Shown: positions 2,247 through 20,438, counted from the first letter of the stretch. The stretch: 32,000 nucleotides of DNA from Promethearchaeota archaeon (GCA_048939465.1 JBHLPL010000009.1:1-32000); one strand, 5' to 3'. A program made the numbers and translations. Notes: generated from the letters alone by a model not told the origin.

Positions 2247-2277
2247 GGCTAATTAGAAAGTACTCTCGGAATGCTGT

Positions 2278-2459
2278 GCCGGGGTAGCCAAGTGGTCTAC
2301 GGCGCTGGCCTCGAGAGCAGCTAACATAAAAGGAAGAATACATAAAAGACAACGGAAATCCTTTGGGACAGATTGAACAAGAAAGTCAGTGACGCAGTAG
2401 CGTCTCGCGGGTTCGAATCGGCGCTACATTACGCCGCGAGAATCCTGCCCCCGGCGCCA
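2278..2459 (+). tRNA. tRNA-Ser(CGA) with two introns (37/38: 2316-2383; 59/60: 2418-2442) and encoded CCA
   Basis: Acceptor stem GCCGGGG/CCCCGGC, discriminator G plus CCA, anticodon arm CTGGC-CTCGAGA-GTCAG after removing intron 1, long variable arm GACGC-AGTA-GCGTC, T arm GCGGG-TTCGAAT-CCTGC after removing intron 2. Confidence 0.93.
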
Positions 2460-2538
2460 CTTAATACAACCCATGTTACCGATCAATTAGTGCATCAATC
2501 AACACGAGTCGGGATTGGAGGGTTGGTGTTGAGGCTGT

Positions 2539-2863
2539 GTAGACTGCCCCCCGCTTTCGCAGGGAGCCTTCCATCAGAGGTTGAGTATGGTGCACCGCAC
2601 CACGCAACCCCACCGTCAACAGGACGAAAGAGCCTGCCTACAGGGACTCCAGCTCTGGTAAACTGGGAAAAGACGTTGTACCCTCGAACTTCCCGCACCT
2701 TATCTCATCAATCCCCCCCGCGGGTCATTAACCGTTTCCACATGGGAGAAAAGCGTGCCTTTAGCCCTATTCGAATATATTGCAAGAATGTAGAATGTAC
2801 TTGGAGACGGTTCAATCACTCTCCGCCCTTCCGGACGGAGTTTCCTTGAGGTGGTTCAGGTGT
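2539..2863 (+). mobile_element. Element E1 (325 nt): ORF-less IS200/IS605-like (omegaRNA/HEARO-like) insertion near the 5' end of porG
   Basis: Starts GTAGACTGCCCC plus a hairpin, ends with hairpin CTCCG..CGGAG-TTTCCTTGAGGTGGTTCAGGTGT directly before ATGAA. Its 3' half aligns with E2 and E3. Family assignment is inference from end motifs. Confidence 0.7.
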
Positions 2864-3420
2864 ATGAAATTCGCTGGCATGGTCGAGGAGGACAAGGTGC
2901 AGTAACAGCATCCTATGTTCTCGTAGATGCCGCATATAGAGACGGCTATGAAGGCGTTCAGTCTTTTCCTTTTTTCGGTGCTGAGAGGAGAGGGGCACCA
3001 GTTAAAGCGTTTACTAGAATTTCAAAGACGATGATATATTCCCGCTGCCAAATTTATGAGCCTGATGCGATCATAGTTTTGGATCCTACTTTGCTGGATA
3101 TTGTCGATGTTACGGAAGGATTGAAAAGAGGCGGAGTCATTGTAGCCAATGCAAATGAGGTTCCAAAGAAATGGAGAAACAAGAATTGGAAGATATACAT
3201 AGTTGATGCTACTGCAATAGCGCTAGAAGTCGGCTTGATCGTAGCGGGATCCCCTGTATTAAACACGCCGATGCTGGGCGCATTTGCTAAAGCAACGGGA
3301 TTAGTAAGGCTGGAGAGAATCAAGGAAGCGATAAGCAATAAGTGGAAAGGCAAGGCCGGAGAAAGAAATATAAAAGCGGCAGAATTAGCATATGAACAGT
3401 GTAAATTGGTAGTATCTTAG
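2860..3420 (+). CDS. porG: 2-oxoacid (pyruvate):ferredoxin oxidoreductase gamma subunit
   Basis: YEIRWHGRGGQGAV and FFGAERRGAPVKAFTRIS. GTG at 2860 follows SD GAGGTG. Substrate specificity (por versus vor/kor) cannot be resolved from sequence. Confidence 0.92.
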   Translation: MYEIRWHGRGGQGAVTASYVLVDAAYRDGYEGVQSFPFFGAERRGAPVKAFTRISKTMIYSRCQIYEPDAIIVLDPTLLDIVDVTEGLKRGGVIVANANEVPKKWRNKNWKIYIVDATAIALEVGLIVAGSPVLNTPMLGAFAKATGLVRLERIKEAISNKWKGKAGERNIKAAELAYEQCKLVVS

Positions 3421-3436
3421 GCTAGGGGGACTTATT

Positions 3437-3769
3437 CTGAATTCTGGAACTCGGCAAAAGAGTCTGGTTCTTGGAAAGACTGCTAAGACCAAGAAAAAGA
3501 AAGCAGGAATTAGACCTGACGCAATACCTTTATCAAAGCCTGGCAGGGGATCTTACGGCAGAACCGGAGATTGGAGAACCTTCAAGCCGGTAATGGATAA
3601 AGAAAAATGCAACAAATGTATGCTCTGTTGGCTTTATTGTCCAGAAGGAGTAATAGATCAAGGGAAAGAAGGATATCCGAAAATCGATTATATGTATTGT
3701 AAAGGTTGTGGCATTTGTGCTCAAGAATGCCCATCCAAGTGCATAGAAATGGTGAGAGAGGAAAAGTAA
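3437..3769 (+). CDS. porD: 2-oxoacid:ferredoxin oxidoreductase delta subunit (2x[4Fe-4S]); start codon uncertain, missing from the ORF track
   Basis: The frame encodes PLSKPGRGSYGRTGDWRTFKPVMDKEKCNKCMLCWLYCPE...YCKGCGICAQECPSKCIEMVREEK*. There is no in-frame ATG/GTG/TTG before the conserved region; CTG at 3437 after GGGGGA is tentative. Confidence 0.88.
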   Translation: MNSGTRQKSLVLGKTAKTKKKKAGIRPDAIPLSKPGRGSYGRTGDWRTFKPVMDKEKCNKCMLCWLYCPEGVIDQGKEGYPKIDYMYCKGCGICAQECPSKCIEMVREEK

Positions 3770-4065
3770 ACTATTCCTCTCCTGTCGAAGGAGCTTATGA
3801 CTATGCTAGACCTCAATTCCCGAGCGGGCTTTGGTTCCGGTACACGCCAAATCAGGGGGCAGTTTACATCGTCCCAGCCCACTAGTCCCCATATAACGTC
3901 GGGGTTTATAGTTTATTTCACACATCTTCCCCACAGGTCGGTGACCGTTTCCGCGTCAGAGAGGGGTGCGCCTTTAGATATTTCAGCAAATATATAACAA
4001 ACGTATTTGAAGGCCACTAAATTCCTCTCCTCCCTTTCGGACGGATTCTCCTTGAGGTGGTTCAA
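3766..4065 (+). mobile_element. Element E2 (300 nt) at the porD/porA junction
   Basis: Starts GTAAACT (overlaps the porD TAA), ends TTCTCCTTGAGGTGGTTCAA directly before ATGAA (porA start). About 70% ungapped identity to E3 over 138 nt by hand count. Confidence 0.8.
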
Positions 4066-5277
4066 ATGAAAACACAGATTATGACGGGAAATACGGCTGC
4101 AGCGTATGCTGCCAAATATGCGAGAGCACAAGTTATCGCTGCTTATCCCATAACACCACAAACCACAATCGTAGAAGCGATAGCGAGTCTCATAGATGAA
4201 GGTGAAATGGAAGCAGAATACATTCGTGTCGAGAGTGAACACAGTGCTATGGCAGCTTGCATTGGTGCTGCCGCTACTGGAGCCAGAGCATTTACTGCAA
4301 CATCATCCCATGGCCTTACTTTGATGCATGAAATGCTTCATTGGGCTAGCGGATCTAGGTTGCCCATTGTTATGGCAAATGTCAATCGAGCCATGGGACC
4401 GCCGTGGAATATATGGCCCGATCACAATGATAGCATATCACAAAGAGATGTTGGATGGATACAATTCTATGTCGAAAACAATCAAGAGGTATTCGATACG
4501 ATCTTACAGTGCTACCGGATTTCTGAAAACCAAGAAGTTCTGTTGCCCTCCATGGTGAACCTCGACGGCTTTATTATTTCTCACACCTCTGCCCCGCTAA
4601 GCTTACCTGGTCAAGAAGAGGTCGATGAATTCATACCGGACTATAACCCAAATCCGGAGAAACAACTTGTCATGGATACTCACAAACCAGTGACACATGG
4701 CAACATCATTATGGTTAACAGTCCAGACGATTGGTATTATGAGTATCGTTATATGATTCACGAAGCTATGATGAACGCCAAGAAGGTCATTCAAGAAGTT
4801 GTAGAGGAGTTTCACAGAAGATTCGGTAGGTCACACGGGGGATTGGTTGAAGAGTATAAATGTAAAGATGCAAACCTGATTTTAGTATCCATGGGAACTA
4901 TTGCAAGCCAGGCTAAAGCCGCTATCGATGAGTTGAGACAGGAAGGATACAAAGTGGGAGCTCTCAAGCTAAGGGTTTTTAGACCATTTCCTAGGGAGGA
5001 GTTCCAAAGACTGGCAGATAGAGTCGAAGCCCTTGCGGTGATAGACAGGAACATATCTTTTGGAATGGGGGGTGCAGCTTCCGCAGAGATTAAGGCTGCA
5101 TTATACAATCACAAGAAACACCCATTAATCTTGGAGAACATCGCAGGAATAGGAGGGAGAGACGTGACATCCTCCGATATTAAAAAGATGGTTCTGGGTG
5201 CATTAGAAGTGCTAGAAACTGGTAAAACAGGAGAGGATATTAATTGGCATGGCCTCCGAGTGGGAGAAATGAAGTAG
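4066..5277 (+). CDS. porA: 2-oxoacid:ferredoxin oxidoreductase alpha subunit
   Basis: AYPITPQT, VESEHSAM, ATSSHGL, NVNRAMGPP, KLRVFRPFP. ATG at 4066 with SD GAGGTG. Confidence 0.95.
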   Translation: MKTQIMTGNTAAAYAAKYARAQVIAAYPITPQTTIVEAIASLIDEGEMEAEYIRVESEHSAMAACIGAAATGARAFTATSSHGLTLMHEMLHWASGSRLPIVMANVNRAMGPPWNIWPDHNDSISQRDVGWIQFYVENNQEVFDTILQCYRISENQEVLLPSMVNLDGFIISHTSAPLSLPGQEEVDEFIPDYNPNPEKQLVMDTHKPVTHGNIIMVNSPDDWYYEYRYMIHEAMMNAKKVIQEVVEEFHRRFGRSHGGLVEEYKCKDANLILVSMGTIASQAKAAIDELRQEGYKVGALKLRVFRPFPREEFQRLADRVEALAVIDRNISFGMGGAASAEIKAALYNHKKHPLILENIAGIGGRDVTSSDIKKMVLGALEVLETGKTGEDINWHGLRVGEMK

Positions 5278-5570
5278 ACTGCCCCTCCGATAAGAAAGGA
5301 GTTTATGACTATGTTTGACTACAATTTCTTCAGGGGGTCCGGTTGCATCACATGCCAAATCAGGGGACGGTTTATAGCGTCCCAGCCCAGTGACCCGCAC
5401 ACAGCGTCGAGGTATGTAGTCTCTTTCACCCATGCTCCTCATCCGTTATTAGCCGCTTCCTCCCTCCGAGAGCGTACCTCTGAATCCATTAGCACGGTTG
5501 AAACGAACGTATTTAAGGACCGCCCAATTGATCCCTTACTTTTCGGAAAGAAACTTCGTGAGGTGGTTTG
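5274..5570 (+). mobile_element. Element E3 (297 nt) at the porA/porB junction
   Basis: Starts GTAGACTGCCCC (overlaps the porA TAG), ends CTTCGTGAGGTGGTTTG directly before ATGAA (porB start). Homologous to E2. Confidence 0.8.
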
Positions 5571-6476
5571 ATGAACTCAATATTAGGACTTCCGAGGAAG
5601 GAACTCGTGTATAAGGGAAATAGCGCGTGTATGGGTTGTAGCGCTGTATTGGCAATGAGACATGTGTTAAAAGCTCTAGGTGAGCAAACTGTCATGATCA
5701 TACCGGCAGGCTGTAGCACAATAATTCAGGGTCTCTATCCAAAAACTGCTATTGGCGTTCCTCTGCTCAACATCGCTTTCGAGGCTGCTGCAGCTGCGGC
5801 CTCCGGCATTACAGCAGGATTTAGAGCTCAAGGAAAGAAGGACATTACTGTGGTAGCGTGGGCAGGAGATGGAGGGACATTTGATATTGGACTTCAGGCA
5901 TTAAGTGGTGCGGCAGAACGTCAGACGAATATGATTTACATATGTTATGACAACGAGGCATACATGAATACGGGAATTCAACGTAGCGGCGCAACCCCCT
6001 ACGGAGCCATAACGACCACGACGCCGGGAGGAAAGAGACTACCTAAAAAGGACCTTGATGCGATTGTCTTGGCTCACGACGTACCTTATTTGGCAACTGC
6101 CAACATAGGATACCCACAGGACCTCTATAGGAAAGTCAAAAAAGCGAAAGAAAAGGAAGGATTCAGATTCATCCACATACTAAGTCCTTGCCCCCCAGGA
6201 TGGAGGTTTGATTCAAGTCTTACAGTCACCCTGGCGAAGTTGGCGGTTCAGACTGGCATATGGGTACTGTTTGAGGTGGAAGACGGCAAATTCAGACTTT
6301 CAGGACCAAGCAAGAGACTGCTGGACCCGAATAAAAGAAAGCCTGTCGAAGATTATCTGAAGCTTCAGGGAAGATTCTCAGAGCTCACAGGTGAGGATGT
6401 GAAAGAGATAAATAGAGAGATCGTGGAAAACTGGCAAGAAATAAACAGAAAAGTCTCTCGAGCAGAAGGAGTGTAG
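5571..6476 (+). CDS. porB: 2-oxoacid:ferredoxin oxidoreductase beta subunit (TPP-binding)
   Basis: ACMGC, GDGGTFDIGLQ...CYDNEAYMNTGIQRS (TPP motif), SPCPPGW. Confidence 0.95.
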   Translation: MNSILGLPRKELVYKGNSACMGCSAVLAMRHVLKALGEQTVMIIPAGCSTIIQGLYPKTAIGVPLLNIAFEAAAAAASGITAGFRAQGKKDITVVAWAGDGGTFDIGLQALSGAAERQTNMIYICYDNEAYMNTGIQRSGATPYGAITTTTPGGKRLPKKDLDAIVLAHDVPYLATANIGYPQDLYRKVKKAKEKEGFRFIHILSPCPPGWRFDSSLTVTLAKLAVQTGIWVLFEVEDGKFRLSGPSKRLLDPNKRKPVEDYLKLQGRFSELTGEDVKEINREIVENWQEINRKVSRAEGV

Positions 6477-19978: not shown

Positions 19979-20002
19979 TTATTAGAACATATGTTCTAAT
20001 AA
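19979..20002. repeat. 24-bp perfect palindrome, copy 1 (TTATTAGAACATATGTTCTAATAA)
   Basis: Self-complementary and identical to 20299-20322; 7 nt from the right-hand ORB. Confidence 0.95.
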
Positions 20003-20014
20003 ATAAATCAAGAG

Positions 20015-20293
20015 TCAGTCAATTACTCGGAATTTGTGTACGACGATTACATCCGAGTACTTGTCAAAAAACCCATCAAACTCTACTTCGTAATCATCTG
20101 ACACAAGTATAACACTGTCTGCAACTTTCCTACCATTCCTCATAACCAAAAATCCAAGTTTCTGGTTTTGCTTCAATCCAACCTTCGTGTCCCATTTGTA
20201 TCTATACCCGTAGAGCTCCTTATTGAATCTAGTTCTTTTCGGATCGTCCTGTTTCCCAGAAATGACGTCATAAGTGTACAATATTCTTGGCAT
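20015..20293 (-). CDS. 92-aa protein with a Cas2/VapD-like (ferredoxin-fold) signature
   Basis: MPRILYTYDV...KRTRFNKELYGY...GFL...GRKVADSVILV...: hydrophobic beta1 ending in YD, a helix, then an SV-hydrophobic strand. Fold assignment is inference. Confidence 0.65.
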   Translation of the reverse strand: MPRILYTYDVISGKQDDPKRTRFNKELYGYRYKWDTKVGLKQNQKLGFLVMRNGRKVADSVILVSDDYEVEFDGFFDKYSDVIVVHKFRVID

Positions 20294-20295
20294 GA

Positions 20296-20325
20296 TTTTT
20301 ATTAGAACATATGTTCTAATAAAAA
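20296..20325. repeat. Palindrome copy 2 (30-bp perfect, same 24-bp core)
   Basis: TTTTTATTAGAACATATGTTCTAATAAAAA ends 2 nt upstream of the ATG of the small minus-strand gene. Confidence 0.95.
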
Positions 20326-20438
20326 ACTTTCGCAATTTTGACCGTAAAGATAAAAAGCCGTTCAGGACAAACGTGAATCCAAAAGCGTTGAGCGCCACTC
20401 AGAATCAGAGCAGTACTAATTGCAGATGGGAAAGCCTC

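What the first reader, a model, noticed from the sequence alone, without database searches (positions are those of the whole stretch)
3766..3900. Conserved ~102-nt 5' RNA domain suggests guide RNAs embedded in the por mRNA
Seen in sequence: each element's 5' terminus can pair with a segment about 100 nt downstream. E2 GUAAACUAUUCC pairs with GGGGCAGUUUAC (3856-67), E3 GUAGACUGCCCC with GGGGACGGUUUAU (5363-75), and E1 more weakly with ...CCUAC (2637-41). E2 and E3 show compensatory changes, and G-U pairs favour the + strand. CCAGC and (A/G)CGU(C/U)G follow. Established knowledge: IscB omegaRNA/HEARO scaffolds open with a similar GUCAAC...GUUGAC stem and use the 5' flank as guide with a 3' TAM. 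Inference: the operon transcript could yield three guide RNAs whose guides are host sequence (about 2523-2538, 3750-3765, 5258-5273), targeting the empty allele or serving a repurposed regulatory role.
Basis: inference. Interest (0 to 1): 0.65.

Follow-up and report, generated by a model that had tools for sequence, protein, structure and literature searches.

The report
Gene-less TnpB mini-transposons splitting por operon
The three ~300-base repeats between the por genes are protein-less miniature IS200/IS605 transposons that keep the guide-RNA scaffold of a TnpB nuclease, but that RNA is written on the strand opposite to the por mRNA; this kind of element is already known, so the finding is real but largely ordinary.

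Summary
The first six bases of each repeat (GTAAAC or GTAGAC) pair with a complement about 97 bases further in, and this pair covaries between subfamilies.

The repeats are E1 2539-2850/2854, E2 3766-4065 and E3 5274-5570. They are gene-less IS200/IS605 mini-transposons (PATE-like), with about 85 hits, roughly 35 of them full length, in this 1.96-Mb Asgard MAG. Their ends match a full TnpB insertion sequence in the same genome. The 6-bp helix corresponds to the TnpB omega-RNA pseudoknot.

- **Nuclease:** no IscB and no HEARO match were found; TnpB and TnpA are present.
- **Insertion:** two same-genus genomes have empty sites, which show exact insertion without duplication next to TTCAT, which on the por strand is the ATGAA of the start codon.
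- **Effect on por:** the right end supplies a stop codon to the upstream gene, and the left end supplies GAGGTG to the downstream one.

This scan had already reported the same family elsewhere in this genome.

The parts
3766..4065 (-). E2: gene-less IS200/IS605 mini-transposon (PATE-like, subfamily A) between porD and porA. Right end (RE) at 3766, left end (LE) at 4065.
   Evidence: Repeat family. Ends homologous to the composite TnpB IS. Absent from the por operon of same-genus genomes G001 and G002. Contigs of independent runs bridge both junctions.
5274..5570 (-). E3: the same kind of element between porA and porB, in a decaying state.
   Evidence: The empty site in G002/G001 reads ...GAAATGAA|ATGAAYTC, so the boundaries are exact and there is no target duplication. 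On the TnpB strand its pseudoknot has 2 A-C mismatches.
2539..2854 (-). E1: an element in front of porG. Its RE/scaffold is of another subfamily (C, like C10:25653 and C144:4070) and its LE is subfamily-A type. The LE boundary is ambiguous (2850 or 2854).
   Evidence: Alignments. Only the LE matches the composite IS. Relatives lack the element. Contigs in runs X7 and X9 skip 2487-2860.
3766..3935 (-). omega-RNA (reRNA) scaffold of E2, read on the minus strand and ending at 3766; the guide-equivalent flank follows at 3765-3746.
   Evidence: Homologous to the last ~135 nt of the tnpB ORF plus the RE of the composite IS. Consensus structure and covariation on this strand.
3862..3867 (-). Inner arm of the pseudoknot (GTAAAC on the minus strand). 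It pairs with the terminal 3766-3771 (GTTTAC on the minus strand, which includes the TEM TTTAC).
   Evidence: The geometry matches the ISDra2 omega-RNA pseudoknot, -6..-2 with -102..-106 (PMC10097598).
3774..3793 (-). RE subterminal hairpin of E2.
   Evidence: An 8-bp hairpin with covariation, CUCCUUC/GGGAGGAG against CCUCAC/GUGAGG in TnpB-linked copies of other Asgard genomes.
4027..4046 (-). LE subterminal hairpin of E2.
   Evidence: Conserved hairpin CUCCGUCC-GAAA-GGGCGGAG in the LE alignment. It also matches the LE upstream of the TnpA+TnpB IS on C105.
4054..4059 (+). GAGGTG inside the LE, 6 nt before the porA ATG: a replacement Shine-Dalgarno for porA. The same motif precedes porB (5559-5564) and porG.
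   Evidence: Conserved in subfamily A. 14 of 19 subfamily-A copies have a start codon near the LE end that opens an ORF of 60 aa or more. The function itself is inferred.
4066..4070 (-). TAM/target TTCAT (ATGAA on the por strand), abutting the LE. It is also the porA start codon. The same motif is at 5571-5575 (porB) and 2855-2859 (porG).
   Evidence: Empty-site comparison and flanks of the family.
3746..3765 (-). Guide-equivalent flank of E2, the last codons of porD read antisense. The E3 flank is 5254-5273 and the E1 flank is 2519-2538.
   Evidence: Position relative to the RE follows the TnpB model. The flank matches only itself in the genome.
4000..4013 (-). TATA-like box of the element, about 30 nt upstream of the remnant of the tnpB start.
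   Evidence: Moderately conserved TTAAATA in the LE alignment. Its position relative to the TnpB ATG comes from the composite IS. Promoter activity is inferred.

Best explanation
E1, E2 and E3 are non-autonomous, protein-less derivatives (PATE/MITE-like) of IS200/IS605-family, TnpB-type insertion sequences.

**Anatomy.** Read on the window's minus strand, each element has this order:
1. TAM (TTCAT).
2. Left end with a subterminal hairpin, a TATA-like box and the remnant of the tnpB start.
3. A short middle part.
4. The last ~135 nt of the former tnpB ORF plus the right end, which together are the omega-RNA scaffold. This ends in the TEM TTTAC (TCTAC in E1 and E3).
5. The host flank, which would be the guide.

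**How they arrived.** A Y1 transposase (TnpA, encoded elsewhere in the genome) inserted them as single strands, without target duplication, directly 3' of TTCAT. On the por strand TTCAT reads ATGAA, which is a start codon plus the first bases of a Lys or Asn codon. As a result the family lands at gene starts, here in front of porG, porA and porB.

The 5'-terminus/+97 helix corresponds to the omega-RNA pseudoknot, where the last six scaffold bases pair with a loop about 100 nt upstream, read on the wrong strand.

**Likely function (inferred).** The elements are transcribed antisense to por from their own promoter. The RNA is bound by the cognate TnpB (381 aa, split over contigs C70 and C55, with the RuvC D-E-D and zinc-finger motifs visible). 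The guide would direct cutting of an empty TTCAT+flank site, which is the homing or retention function shown for bacterial TnpB.

**Why the insertions are silent for por.**
- The TEM resembles the TAM, so the reverse complement of the RE starts G-TAA or G-TAG. This restores an in-frame stop where the old ATGA stop/start overlap was, and PorA keeps its last Lys (AAA to AAG). If the ancestral porD/porA junction was also an ATGA overlap, which is inferred, the same holds for PorD.
- The LE carries GAGGTG 6 nt before the ATG.
For: **Family and parent element**
- nhmmer finds about 85 hits in the genome. About 35 are full length, in at least three subfamilies, and many are LE-only pieces.
- Contigs C70 and C55 overlap by exactly 77 nt. 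Joined, they give an IS made of an LE, a 381-aa TnpB ORF and an RE.
- The reverse-complemented mini-element matches the LE up to the tnpB start, and also the last ~135 nt of tnpB plus the RE.

**Proteins**
- Pfam assigns the composite ORF to OrfB_IS605 and Cas12f1-like_TNB. Two further TnpB genes are present, on C2 and C105.
- A TnpA (Y1_Tnp, E 4.9e-37) lies on C105, with the family's LE hairpin upstream of it.

**Empty sites in relatives**
- Same-genus genomes G001 and G002 have the por operon without E1, E2 or E3.
- Their porA/porB junction reads GAAATGAA|ATGAAYTC. This gives exact ends, no duplication, and the TAM TTCAT.

**TAM and TEM**
- TAM TTCAT and TEM TTTAC differ at positions 3 and 5. 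Subfamily B has TTTAT and TTCAC.
- The same pentamers (TTCAT, TTTAT) are the wild-type TAMs of two Geobacillus IS605-family elements, and the same position-3/5 relation between TAM and TEM is reported there (PMC10055086).

**RNA structure and strand**
- Single-sequence MFE is lower on the TnpB strand in 15 of 19 copies.
- With 7 TnpB-linked copies from Hodarchaeota and Borrarchaeota MAGs added, 93.0% of cells pair. Shuffles give 86.5 ± 0.6 and none of 500 reach the observed value. Slid partners give 38-47%.
- In the same alignment there are 69 double-change cells against a shuffle mean of 27 and maximum of 40. G-U outnumbers A-C 125 to 34.
- The GNRA loop (CCYGAAAGGG) exists only on the TnpB strand.

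**Pseudoknot**
- Its geometry equals that of the ISDra2 omega-RNA, -6..-2 with -102..-106 (PMC10097598).

**The insertions are real**
- Contigs from runs of at least two other studies bridge all element/flank junctions.

**Docking at gene starts**
- 14 of 19 subfamily-A copies have a start codon near the LE end (-6 to +18) that opens a long ORF.
- 9 of 12 copies with ATGAA open 60 or more codons, against 23% of all 7035 ATGAA sites in the genome.
- In 8 copies the stop at element positions 2-4 closes a long upstream ORF.
Against: - There is no expression evidence of any kind for either strand.
- E3 has two A-C mismatches in the pseudoknot on the TnpB strand. In that one helix, G-U pairs slightly favour the por strand (7 against 2). 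E3 at least may no longer give a working omega-RNA.
- E1's scaffold belongs to a subfamily for which no TnpB gene was found in this 91%-complete MAG.
- At porD/porA the relatives carry 28 extra bases that the window lacks. Simple insertion there is inferred, not shown.
- E1's LE boundary is uncertain by 4 nt.
- The promoter and the Shine-Dalgarno role of the LE rest on sequence motifs only.
Confidence: 0.88

Rival explanations
1. One reading: the + strand RNA, as part of the por transcript, is an IscB/IsrB-type omega-RNA (HEARO-like). Its guide would lie 5' of GTAAAC, so the operon mRNA would be processed into three guide RNAs.
For: The terminal helix exists. In E3, C106, C69a and C5 it has G-U pairs only on the + strand. 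The elements are certainly transcribed on the + strand if the por operon is one transcript. IscB omega-RNAs do overlap the SD and start of their ORF, and this element ends in an SD plus ATG.
Against: No IscB was found: PF14239 gives no match, and NF040563 gives only an HNH fragment of 34 bits against a cut-off of 175. Rfam gives no HEARO match or any other, even at E up to 10. The domain is collinear with the 3' end of a tnpB ORF on the other strand. Overall structure, G-U balance, the GNRA loop and MFE all favour the other strand.
Confidence: 0.03
2. The elements are dead transposon scars. No omega-RNA is made or used any more, and the conserved structure reflects only recent descent and the DNA-level needs of TnpA (hairpins and ends).
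For: There is no expression evidence. E3's pseudoknot is degraded. E1 has no cognate TnpB in the assembly. Copies differ by 23-33% from E2.
Against: At that divergence the scaffold helices far from the TnpA-recognised ends still keep pairing, through 69 double-change cells (shuffle mean 27, none of 500 reaching it) and a 125:34 G-U excess on one strand. This points to selection on an RNA, not on DNA hairpins. E2's scaffold and pseudoknot are intact. An apparently intact cognate TnpB and a TnpA exist.
Confidence: 0.07
3. The elements have been co-opted as expression modules of the por operon. The LE would act as a portable promoter plus ribosome-binding site on the + strand, and/or the antisense omega-RNA transcripts would regulate por. 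Mobility and homing would be secondary.
For: GAGGTG lies 6 nt before each start, and the native SD is displaced by about 300 nt. A TATA-like box lies about 55-65 nt before the ATG, with a purine-rich stretch on its + strand side (by inspection). Three insertions are tolerated in an operon whose four genes are all intact.
Against: Relatives run the operon without the elements. The same layout is explained by purifying selection on where a TTCAT-targeting element can survive. No transcript data exist. Subfamily B, which targets TTTAT, rarely sits at starts.
Confidence: 0.02

Closest known systems
PATE-like, gene-less IS200/IS605 elements carrying omega-RNAs in Geobacillus stearothermophilus (ISGst families; Meers et al. 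2023, PMC10055086)
   Same: LE and RE hairpins on one strand, and no coding gene. The elements are mobilised in trans by a TnpA and sit alongside TnpB elements with similar ends in the same genome. The TAM pentamers TTCAT and TTTAT are the same, and the TEM differs from the TAM at positions 3 and 5. The element abuts the TAM without duplication.
   Different: The host is an Asgard archaeon. The element has a TATA-type promoter remnant. It strongly prefers gene starts and carries an SD-like LE. Three copies lie inside one operon. Nothing has been tested experimentally here.
ISDra2 TnpB omega-RNA/reRNA (Nakagawa et al. 2023, PMC10097598)
   Same: The scaffold overlaps the 3' end of tnpB. The guide lies 3' of the scaffold, outside the RE. 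The pseudoknot forms between the last ~6 scaffold nucleotides and a segment ~100 nt upstream.
   Different: There is no detectable sequence similarity, and no Rfam model matches. The scaffold here is ~165 nt and sits in a protein-less element.
PATEs of Haloquadratum walsbyi and other haloarchaea (PMC3119063); sense-overlapping ncRNAs at the 3' end of IS1341-type tnpB in Halobacterium (PMC4615843)
   Same: These are archaeal, protein-less IS200/IS605 derivatives, and archaeal RNAs arising from the 3' end of tnpB.
   Different: They belong to a different phylum and have no sequence relation. I cite these papers from their titles and abstracts only.
IscB/IsrB omega-RNA (HEARO RNA, Rfam)
   Same: It is an OMEGA-class guide RNA of an IS200/IS605-superfamily element, about 200-300 nt long, with a flank-derived guide and stand-alone copies.
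   Different: Its guide is 5' and the RNA lies upstream of iscB. Here the RNA is on the other strand with a 3' guide, no IscB is present, and no HEARO match was found.

Membership tests
IS200/IS605 non-autonomous element (PATE-like) | Subterminal imperfect hairpins at both ends, on the same strand | tested here: met
   The RE hairpin (8 bp) and LE hairpin (8 bp) are both predicted on the TnpB strand and both covary.
IS200/IS605 non-autonomous element (PATE-like) | Insertion 3' of a specific 4-5-nt target (TAM) abutting the LE, with no target-site duplication | tested here: met
   The empty porA/porB site in G001 and G002 reads GAAATGAA|ATGAAYTC. The TAM is TTCAT on the element strand and there is no duplication. 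ATGAA follows the LE in 12 of 19 subfamily-A copies.
IS200/IS605 non-autonomous element (PATE-like) | TEM at the RE boundary related to, but distinct from, the TAM | tested here: met
   TTTAC against TTCAT in subfamily A, and TTCAC against TTTAT in subfamily B. Both differ at positions 3 and 5, as described in PMC10055086.
IS200/IS605 non-autonomous element (PATE-like) | Ends homologous to a protein-coding IS, and a Y1 transposase available in trans | tested here: met
   Composite C70+C55 TnpB IS. TnpA with PF01797 at E 4.9e-37 on C105.
IS200/IS605 non-autonomous element (PATE-like) | No protein-coding gene inside the element | tested here: met
   The elements are 297-320 nt. The only ORFs inside them are 66-88 aa and not conserved between copies.
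IS200/IS605 non-autonomous element (PATE-like) | Mobility (excision and insertion by TnpA) | tested here: inconclusive
   Presence/absence differs between species of one genus. No excised or empty allele of E2 or E3 appeared in the four runs laid. One joint skips E1.
TnpB omega-RNA (reRNA) | Scaffold derived from the 3' end of tnpB plus the RE, on the tnpB strand, with the guide 3' of the RE | tested here: met
   Collinearity with the composite IS. The same scaffold lies behind tnpB in 7 loci of Hodarchaeota and Borrarchaeota MAGs, all ending in ...GTAGTTTAC.
TnpB omega-RNA (reRNA) | Conserved secondary structure with a pseudoknot joining the guide-adjacent end to a segment ~100 nt upstream | tested here: met
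   compared with PMC10097598.
TnpB omega-RNA (reRNA) | Expressed, processed, and bound by TnpB | not testable with these tools
   No RNA run is available for this organism.
IscB/IsrB omega-RNA (HEARO) | Match to the HEARO covariance model | tested here: not met
   No Rfam match at gathering threshold, or at E up to 10, over 2400-5700.
IscB/IsrB omega-RNA (HEARO) | IscB or IsrB gene in the genome, with the RNA 5' of it on the same strand | tested here: not met
   PF14239 gives no match. NF040563 gives only 34 bits on an HNH stretch, against a cut-off of 175. The MAG is 91% complete.

The most novel reading that the evidence does not exclude
This TTCAT-targeting family may be adapted to dock harmlessly at ATGA stop/start overlaps inside operons.
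- The TEM mirrors the TAM, so the upstream gene keeps a stop at the same codon.
- The LE brings a strong Shine-Dalgarno, and possibly a TATA box that can fire towards the gene.

If so, translation (and perhaps transcription) of three of the four genes of a central-metabolism operon now depends on transposon-borne signals. Three antisense guide-RNA genes would also point into the por genes and could modulate them.
Probability: 0.3. Interest if true: 0.5.

Novelty: new member of a known kind. Interest (0 to 1): 0.3.

Why it matters
The work corrects a tempting misreading (IscB-type guides inside an mRNA) and gives a clean archaeal example of stand-alone TnpB guide-RNA cassettes. The ends, TAM and TEM are exact, and the empty sites are known.

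The one feature worth more attention is how an essential four-gene operon tolerates three 300-nt insertions. The insertion geometry explains why they change no residue of PorA, and none of PorD if its junction was also an ATGA overlap. It also explains why this family piles up at start codons. That matters for annotating Asgard genomes, because these elements create long 'intergenic' gaps and spurious ORFs. It also bears on how OMEGA elements persist.

The Asgard TnpB/omega-RNA pair, with its defined TAM, could be tested as a compact nuclease.

Tried and rejected
- **Rfam.** Searches of the whole window at gathering threshold, and of 2400-5700 at E up to 10, gave nothing relevant.
- **ARAGORN.** It found no tRNA in the window, although an intron-split tRNA is visible upstream of E1.
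- **IscB.** The family searches were negative.
- **Sequencing runs.** No RNA holder is listed for this stretch.
- **Laid contigs.** Contigs of four DNA runs showed no empty allele of E2 or E3. Two joints between elements (2743>4020 and 2749>5509) are repeat-induced assembly links, not deletions.
- **Off-target guides.** A genome-wide search for TTCAT/TTTAT-adjacent sites matching the three guides found none with 3 or fewer mismatches in 16 nt. I therefore dropped the idea of trans targets or a repurposed regulatory target.
- **Helix detection.** My first all-against-all helix count on the + strand alignment was inconclusive on strand. A structure-based count replaced it.
- **Start test.** A strict 'true start' test on reconstructed empty sites (in-frame stop within 20 codons upstream) passed only 5 of 19 copies. 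It is too crude to use.
- **BLAST in relatives.** The element was found only in the same genus among 40 relatives. More distant copies were reached only through the TnpB protein.
- **Not run.** I did not build a covariance model, fold any protein, or run complex prediction, because none would have changed the verdict.
- **BHB excision.** Other notes report BHB (tRNA-type) introns all over this genome. I considered excision of the elements from the por mRNA by that route and rejected it. The elements are intergenic and share ends with a TnpB IS, so nothing requires removing them from the mRNA; I did not search their boundaries for a bulge-helix-bulge motif.

Full report
**What is in the window**

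Positions 2851-6476 hold an intact porG-porD-porA-porB operon on the + strand. Pfam assigns POR, Fer4, POR_N+PFOR_II and TPP_enzyme_C to the four products.

Three related repeats of 297-320 nt interrupt it:
- E1, 2539-2850/2854, in front of porG.
- E2, 3766-4065, between porD and porA.
- E3, 5274-5570, between porA and porB.

All three have the same orientation. Each starts with GTAAAC or GTAGAC, and the TAA or TAG inside that hexamer is the stop codon of porD and of porA. Each ends with ...CCTTGAGGTGGTT + 2-3 nt, directly before the next start codon.

**The observation**

- In E2, 3766-3771 pairs with 3862-3867 by six Watson-Crick pairs.
- In 19 subfamily-A copies from the genome, the six pairs are Watson-Crick in 98 of 112 cells.
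- The complement sits at a fixed position (~97) in two subfamilies.
- In a third subfamily the end is GTGAAC and its partner GTTCAC. One copy has GCGAAC/GTTCGC, and E1 has GTAGAC/GCCTAC.

So the helix is real and covaries between subfamilies. The claimed E2/E3 'compensatory changes' are not double changes. The further pairing of positions 9-12 competes with a better-supported local hairpin, and with a GGGG/CCCC helix that does covary.

**What the repeats are**

This part was worked out before I opened the scan's earlier notes.
- An iterated nhmmer search gives about 85 hits in the 1.96-Mb, 152-contig MAG. About 35 are full length, in at least three subfamilies, and about 20 cover only the last ~110 nt.
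- TnpB domains occur at five places.
- On C2 and C70 the last ~70 nt of the repeat lie just upstream of tnpB, but on the opposite strand. On C55 the first 158 nt lie at the 3' end of tnpB, again on the opposite strand.
- C70 and C55 overlap by exactly 77 nt. Joined, they give one IS: an LE, a 381-aa TnpB ORF with the GVDLG, IEDL and NSDLNGA motifs and CxxC...CxxC visible, and an RE.
- The reverse-complemented E2 and C66 copies match the IS from the LE to the tnpB start, and again over the last ~135 nt of tnpB plus the RE.
- C105 carries a TnpA (Y1_Tnp, E 4.9e-37) followed by a TnpB, with the family's LE hairpin upstream.
- There is no IscB and no Rfam match.

The repeats are therefore gene-less IS200/IS605 mini-elements.

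**Empty sites**

Among 40 relatives, two same-genus genomes (PorA 87-89% identical) have the por operon without any of the three elements.

*porA/porB.* The relatives read ...GAAATGAA|ATGAAYTC, and the window has E3 exactly between these halves. This fixes the ends, shows there is no target duplication, and gives the TAM as TTCAT abutting the LE (ATGAA on the por strand). The original junction was an ATGA stop/start overlap.

After insertion:
- The last PorA codon changes from AAA to AAG, and both encode Lys.
- The stop changes from TGA to the element's TAG.
- The protein is unchanged.

*porD/porA.* The same arithmetic applies, but the relatives have 28 extra bases there. The ancestral state is therefore inferred.

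*E1.* Its LE boundary is uncertain by 4 nt (GTGT). Either way, the GTG start of porG lies at or inside the element's tail.

*TAM and TEM.* The TEM (TTTAC) differs from the TAM (TTCAT) at positions 3 and 5. Subfamily B has TTCAC and TTTAT. The same pentamers are the wild-type TAMs of two Geobacillus IS605-family elements, and the same position-3/5 relation is reported there (PMC10055086). Because the TEM mirrors the TAM, the reverse complement of the RE (G-TAA-A) carries a stop at the same offset as the TGA in A-TGA-A. This explains the 'seamless' stops.

**Which strand carries the RNA**

On an alignment of 19 scaffolds:
- The TnpB strand gives a consensus fold of -20.8 kcal/mol with 32 pairs.
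- Single-sequence MFE is lower on the TnpB strand in 15 of 19 copies.

The TnpB protein led to seven TnpB-linked loci in Hodarchaeota and Borrarchaeota MAGs. These carry the same scaffold behind tnpB, and all end in ...GTAGTTTAC. With them added (26 sequences, 33 pairs including the pseudoknot):
- G-U outnumbers A-C 125 to 34.
- Shuffled partners give 86.5 ± 0.6%, and none of 500 reach the observed value.
- Slid partners give 38-47%.
- Double-change cells number 69, against a shuffle mean of 27 and maximum of 40.

Clear swaps include UGAC/GUCA to UAGC/GCUA, GGGGCG/CGCCCC to GGGCUU/AAGCCC, and CUCCUUC/GGGAGGAG to CCUCAC/GUGAGG. A GNRA loop (CCYGAAAGGG) exists only on that strand.

Only the 6-bp terminal helix shows a slight G-U excess on the por strand (7 against 2), mainly from E3 and three other degenerate copies.

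The helix geometry, with the last six scaffold bases pairing ~100 nt upstream, is that of the ISDra2 TnpB omega-RNA pseudoknot, -6..-2 with -102..-106 (PMC10097598).

A guide RNA from E2 would be antisense to the end of porD (3765-3746). Its TAM lies at the other end of the element. Its only match in the genome is its own flank, and no other TAM-adjacent site comes within 3 mismatches. This fits the homing/retention role shown for bacterial TnpB, which targets the empty allele, and not a new regulatory role.

Expression could not be examined. E3's pseudoknot is damaged, and no TnpB gene with E1's scaffold type was found.

**Why start codons**

- 14 of 19 subfamily-A copies have a start codon near the LE end (-6 to +18) that opens an ORF of 60 aa or more.
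- 9 of 12 copies with ATGAA open 60 or more codons, against 23% of all 7035 ATGAA sites in the genome. The binomial P is about 2e-4 by my own arithmetic.
- In 8 copies the stop at element positions 2-4 closes a long upstream ORF.
- The LE carries GAGGTG 6 nt before the ATG, and the native SD is pushed ~300 nt away.

Whether this is adaptation, or only survivorship of harmless insertions, is open.

**Reality of the insertions, and habitat**

Contigs from mangrove and sediment metagenome runs of other studies bridge every element/flank junction with 0-3 differences. One joint in two runs skips 2487-2860, which may be an E1-less relative.

**Relation to earlier notes of this scan**

The same family had already been reported several times on other contigs of this genome, as PATE-like omega-RNA cassettes. 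One note reported docking at a start codon with a replacement RBS. My independent analysis agrees. What this window adds:
- Exact empty sites.
- The TAM/TEM explanation for the preserved stop codons.
- Three copies inside one operon.

**Verdict**

This is a new member of a known kind, of modest interest.

Noticed in passing
window ~2270-2470 (+): A tRNA gene lies directly upstream of E1 and ARAGORN misses it. It looks like tRNA-Ser(CGA) with a long variable arm. It appears to be split by a ~85-nt intron after the anticodon loop and by a second ~24-nt insert inside the T-loop (GGTTCGAATC|...|ATCCTGC...CCA). It is conserved in G001 and G002.
   Followed up: partly
window 2539-2550 and 5274-5285: E1 and E3 share the same first 12 nt (GTAGACTGCCCC; TEM TCTAC), although their scaffolds belong to different subfamilies. 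In E3 this end no longer matches its own pseudoknot partner. This may be end conversion between neighbouring copies.
   Followed up: no
window 3765/4066 compared with L035:1473-1500: The same-genus relatives have 28 extra bases (ATGAGAAATGAAGACAAAGGTTTCAGAA, with two more ATGA[AG] motifs) between porD and porA, where the window has E2. This is either a deletion that came with the insertion or a later gain in the relatives.
   Followed up: partly
G000 contigs C70 (start) and C55 (end): The two contigs overlap by exactly 77 nt inside tnpB, so the assembly broke within the full-length IS. The joined IS is itself docked antisense at the ATGAA start of a 177-aa ORF.
   Followed up: partly
genome-wide, e.g. 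C39:12680-12794, C137:8605-8719, C68:13257-13371: About 20 copies consist only of the last ~110 nt of the element (LE, TATA-like box and tnpB-start remnant) with no scaffold. Most are next to ATAAA (TAM TTTAT). They are solo left ends or a still smaller element type.
   Followed up: no
C48:18818-19209: A 392-nt subfamily-B copy carries a nested insert. The insert itself ends in ...GAAGTAGTTTAC, a subfamily-A right end, so this is one element inside another.
   Followed up: no
window 19979-20326: Two copies of a 28-nt AT-rich palindrome (TTATTAGAACATATGTTCTAATAA) lie 320 nt apart.
   Followed up: no
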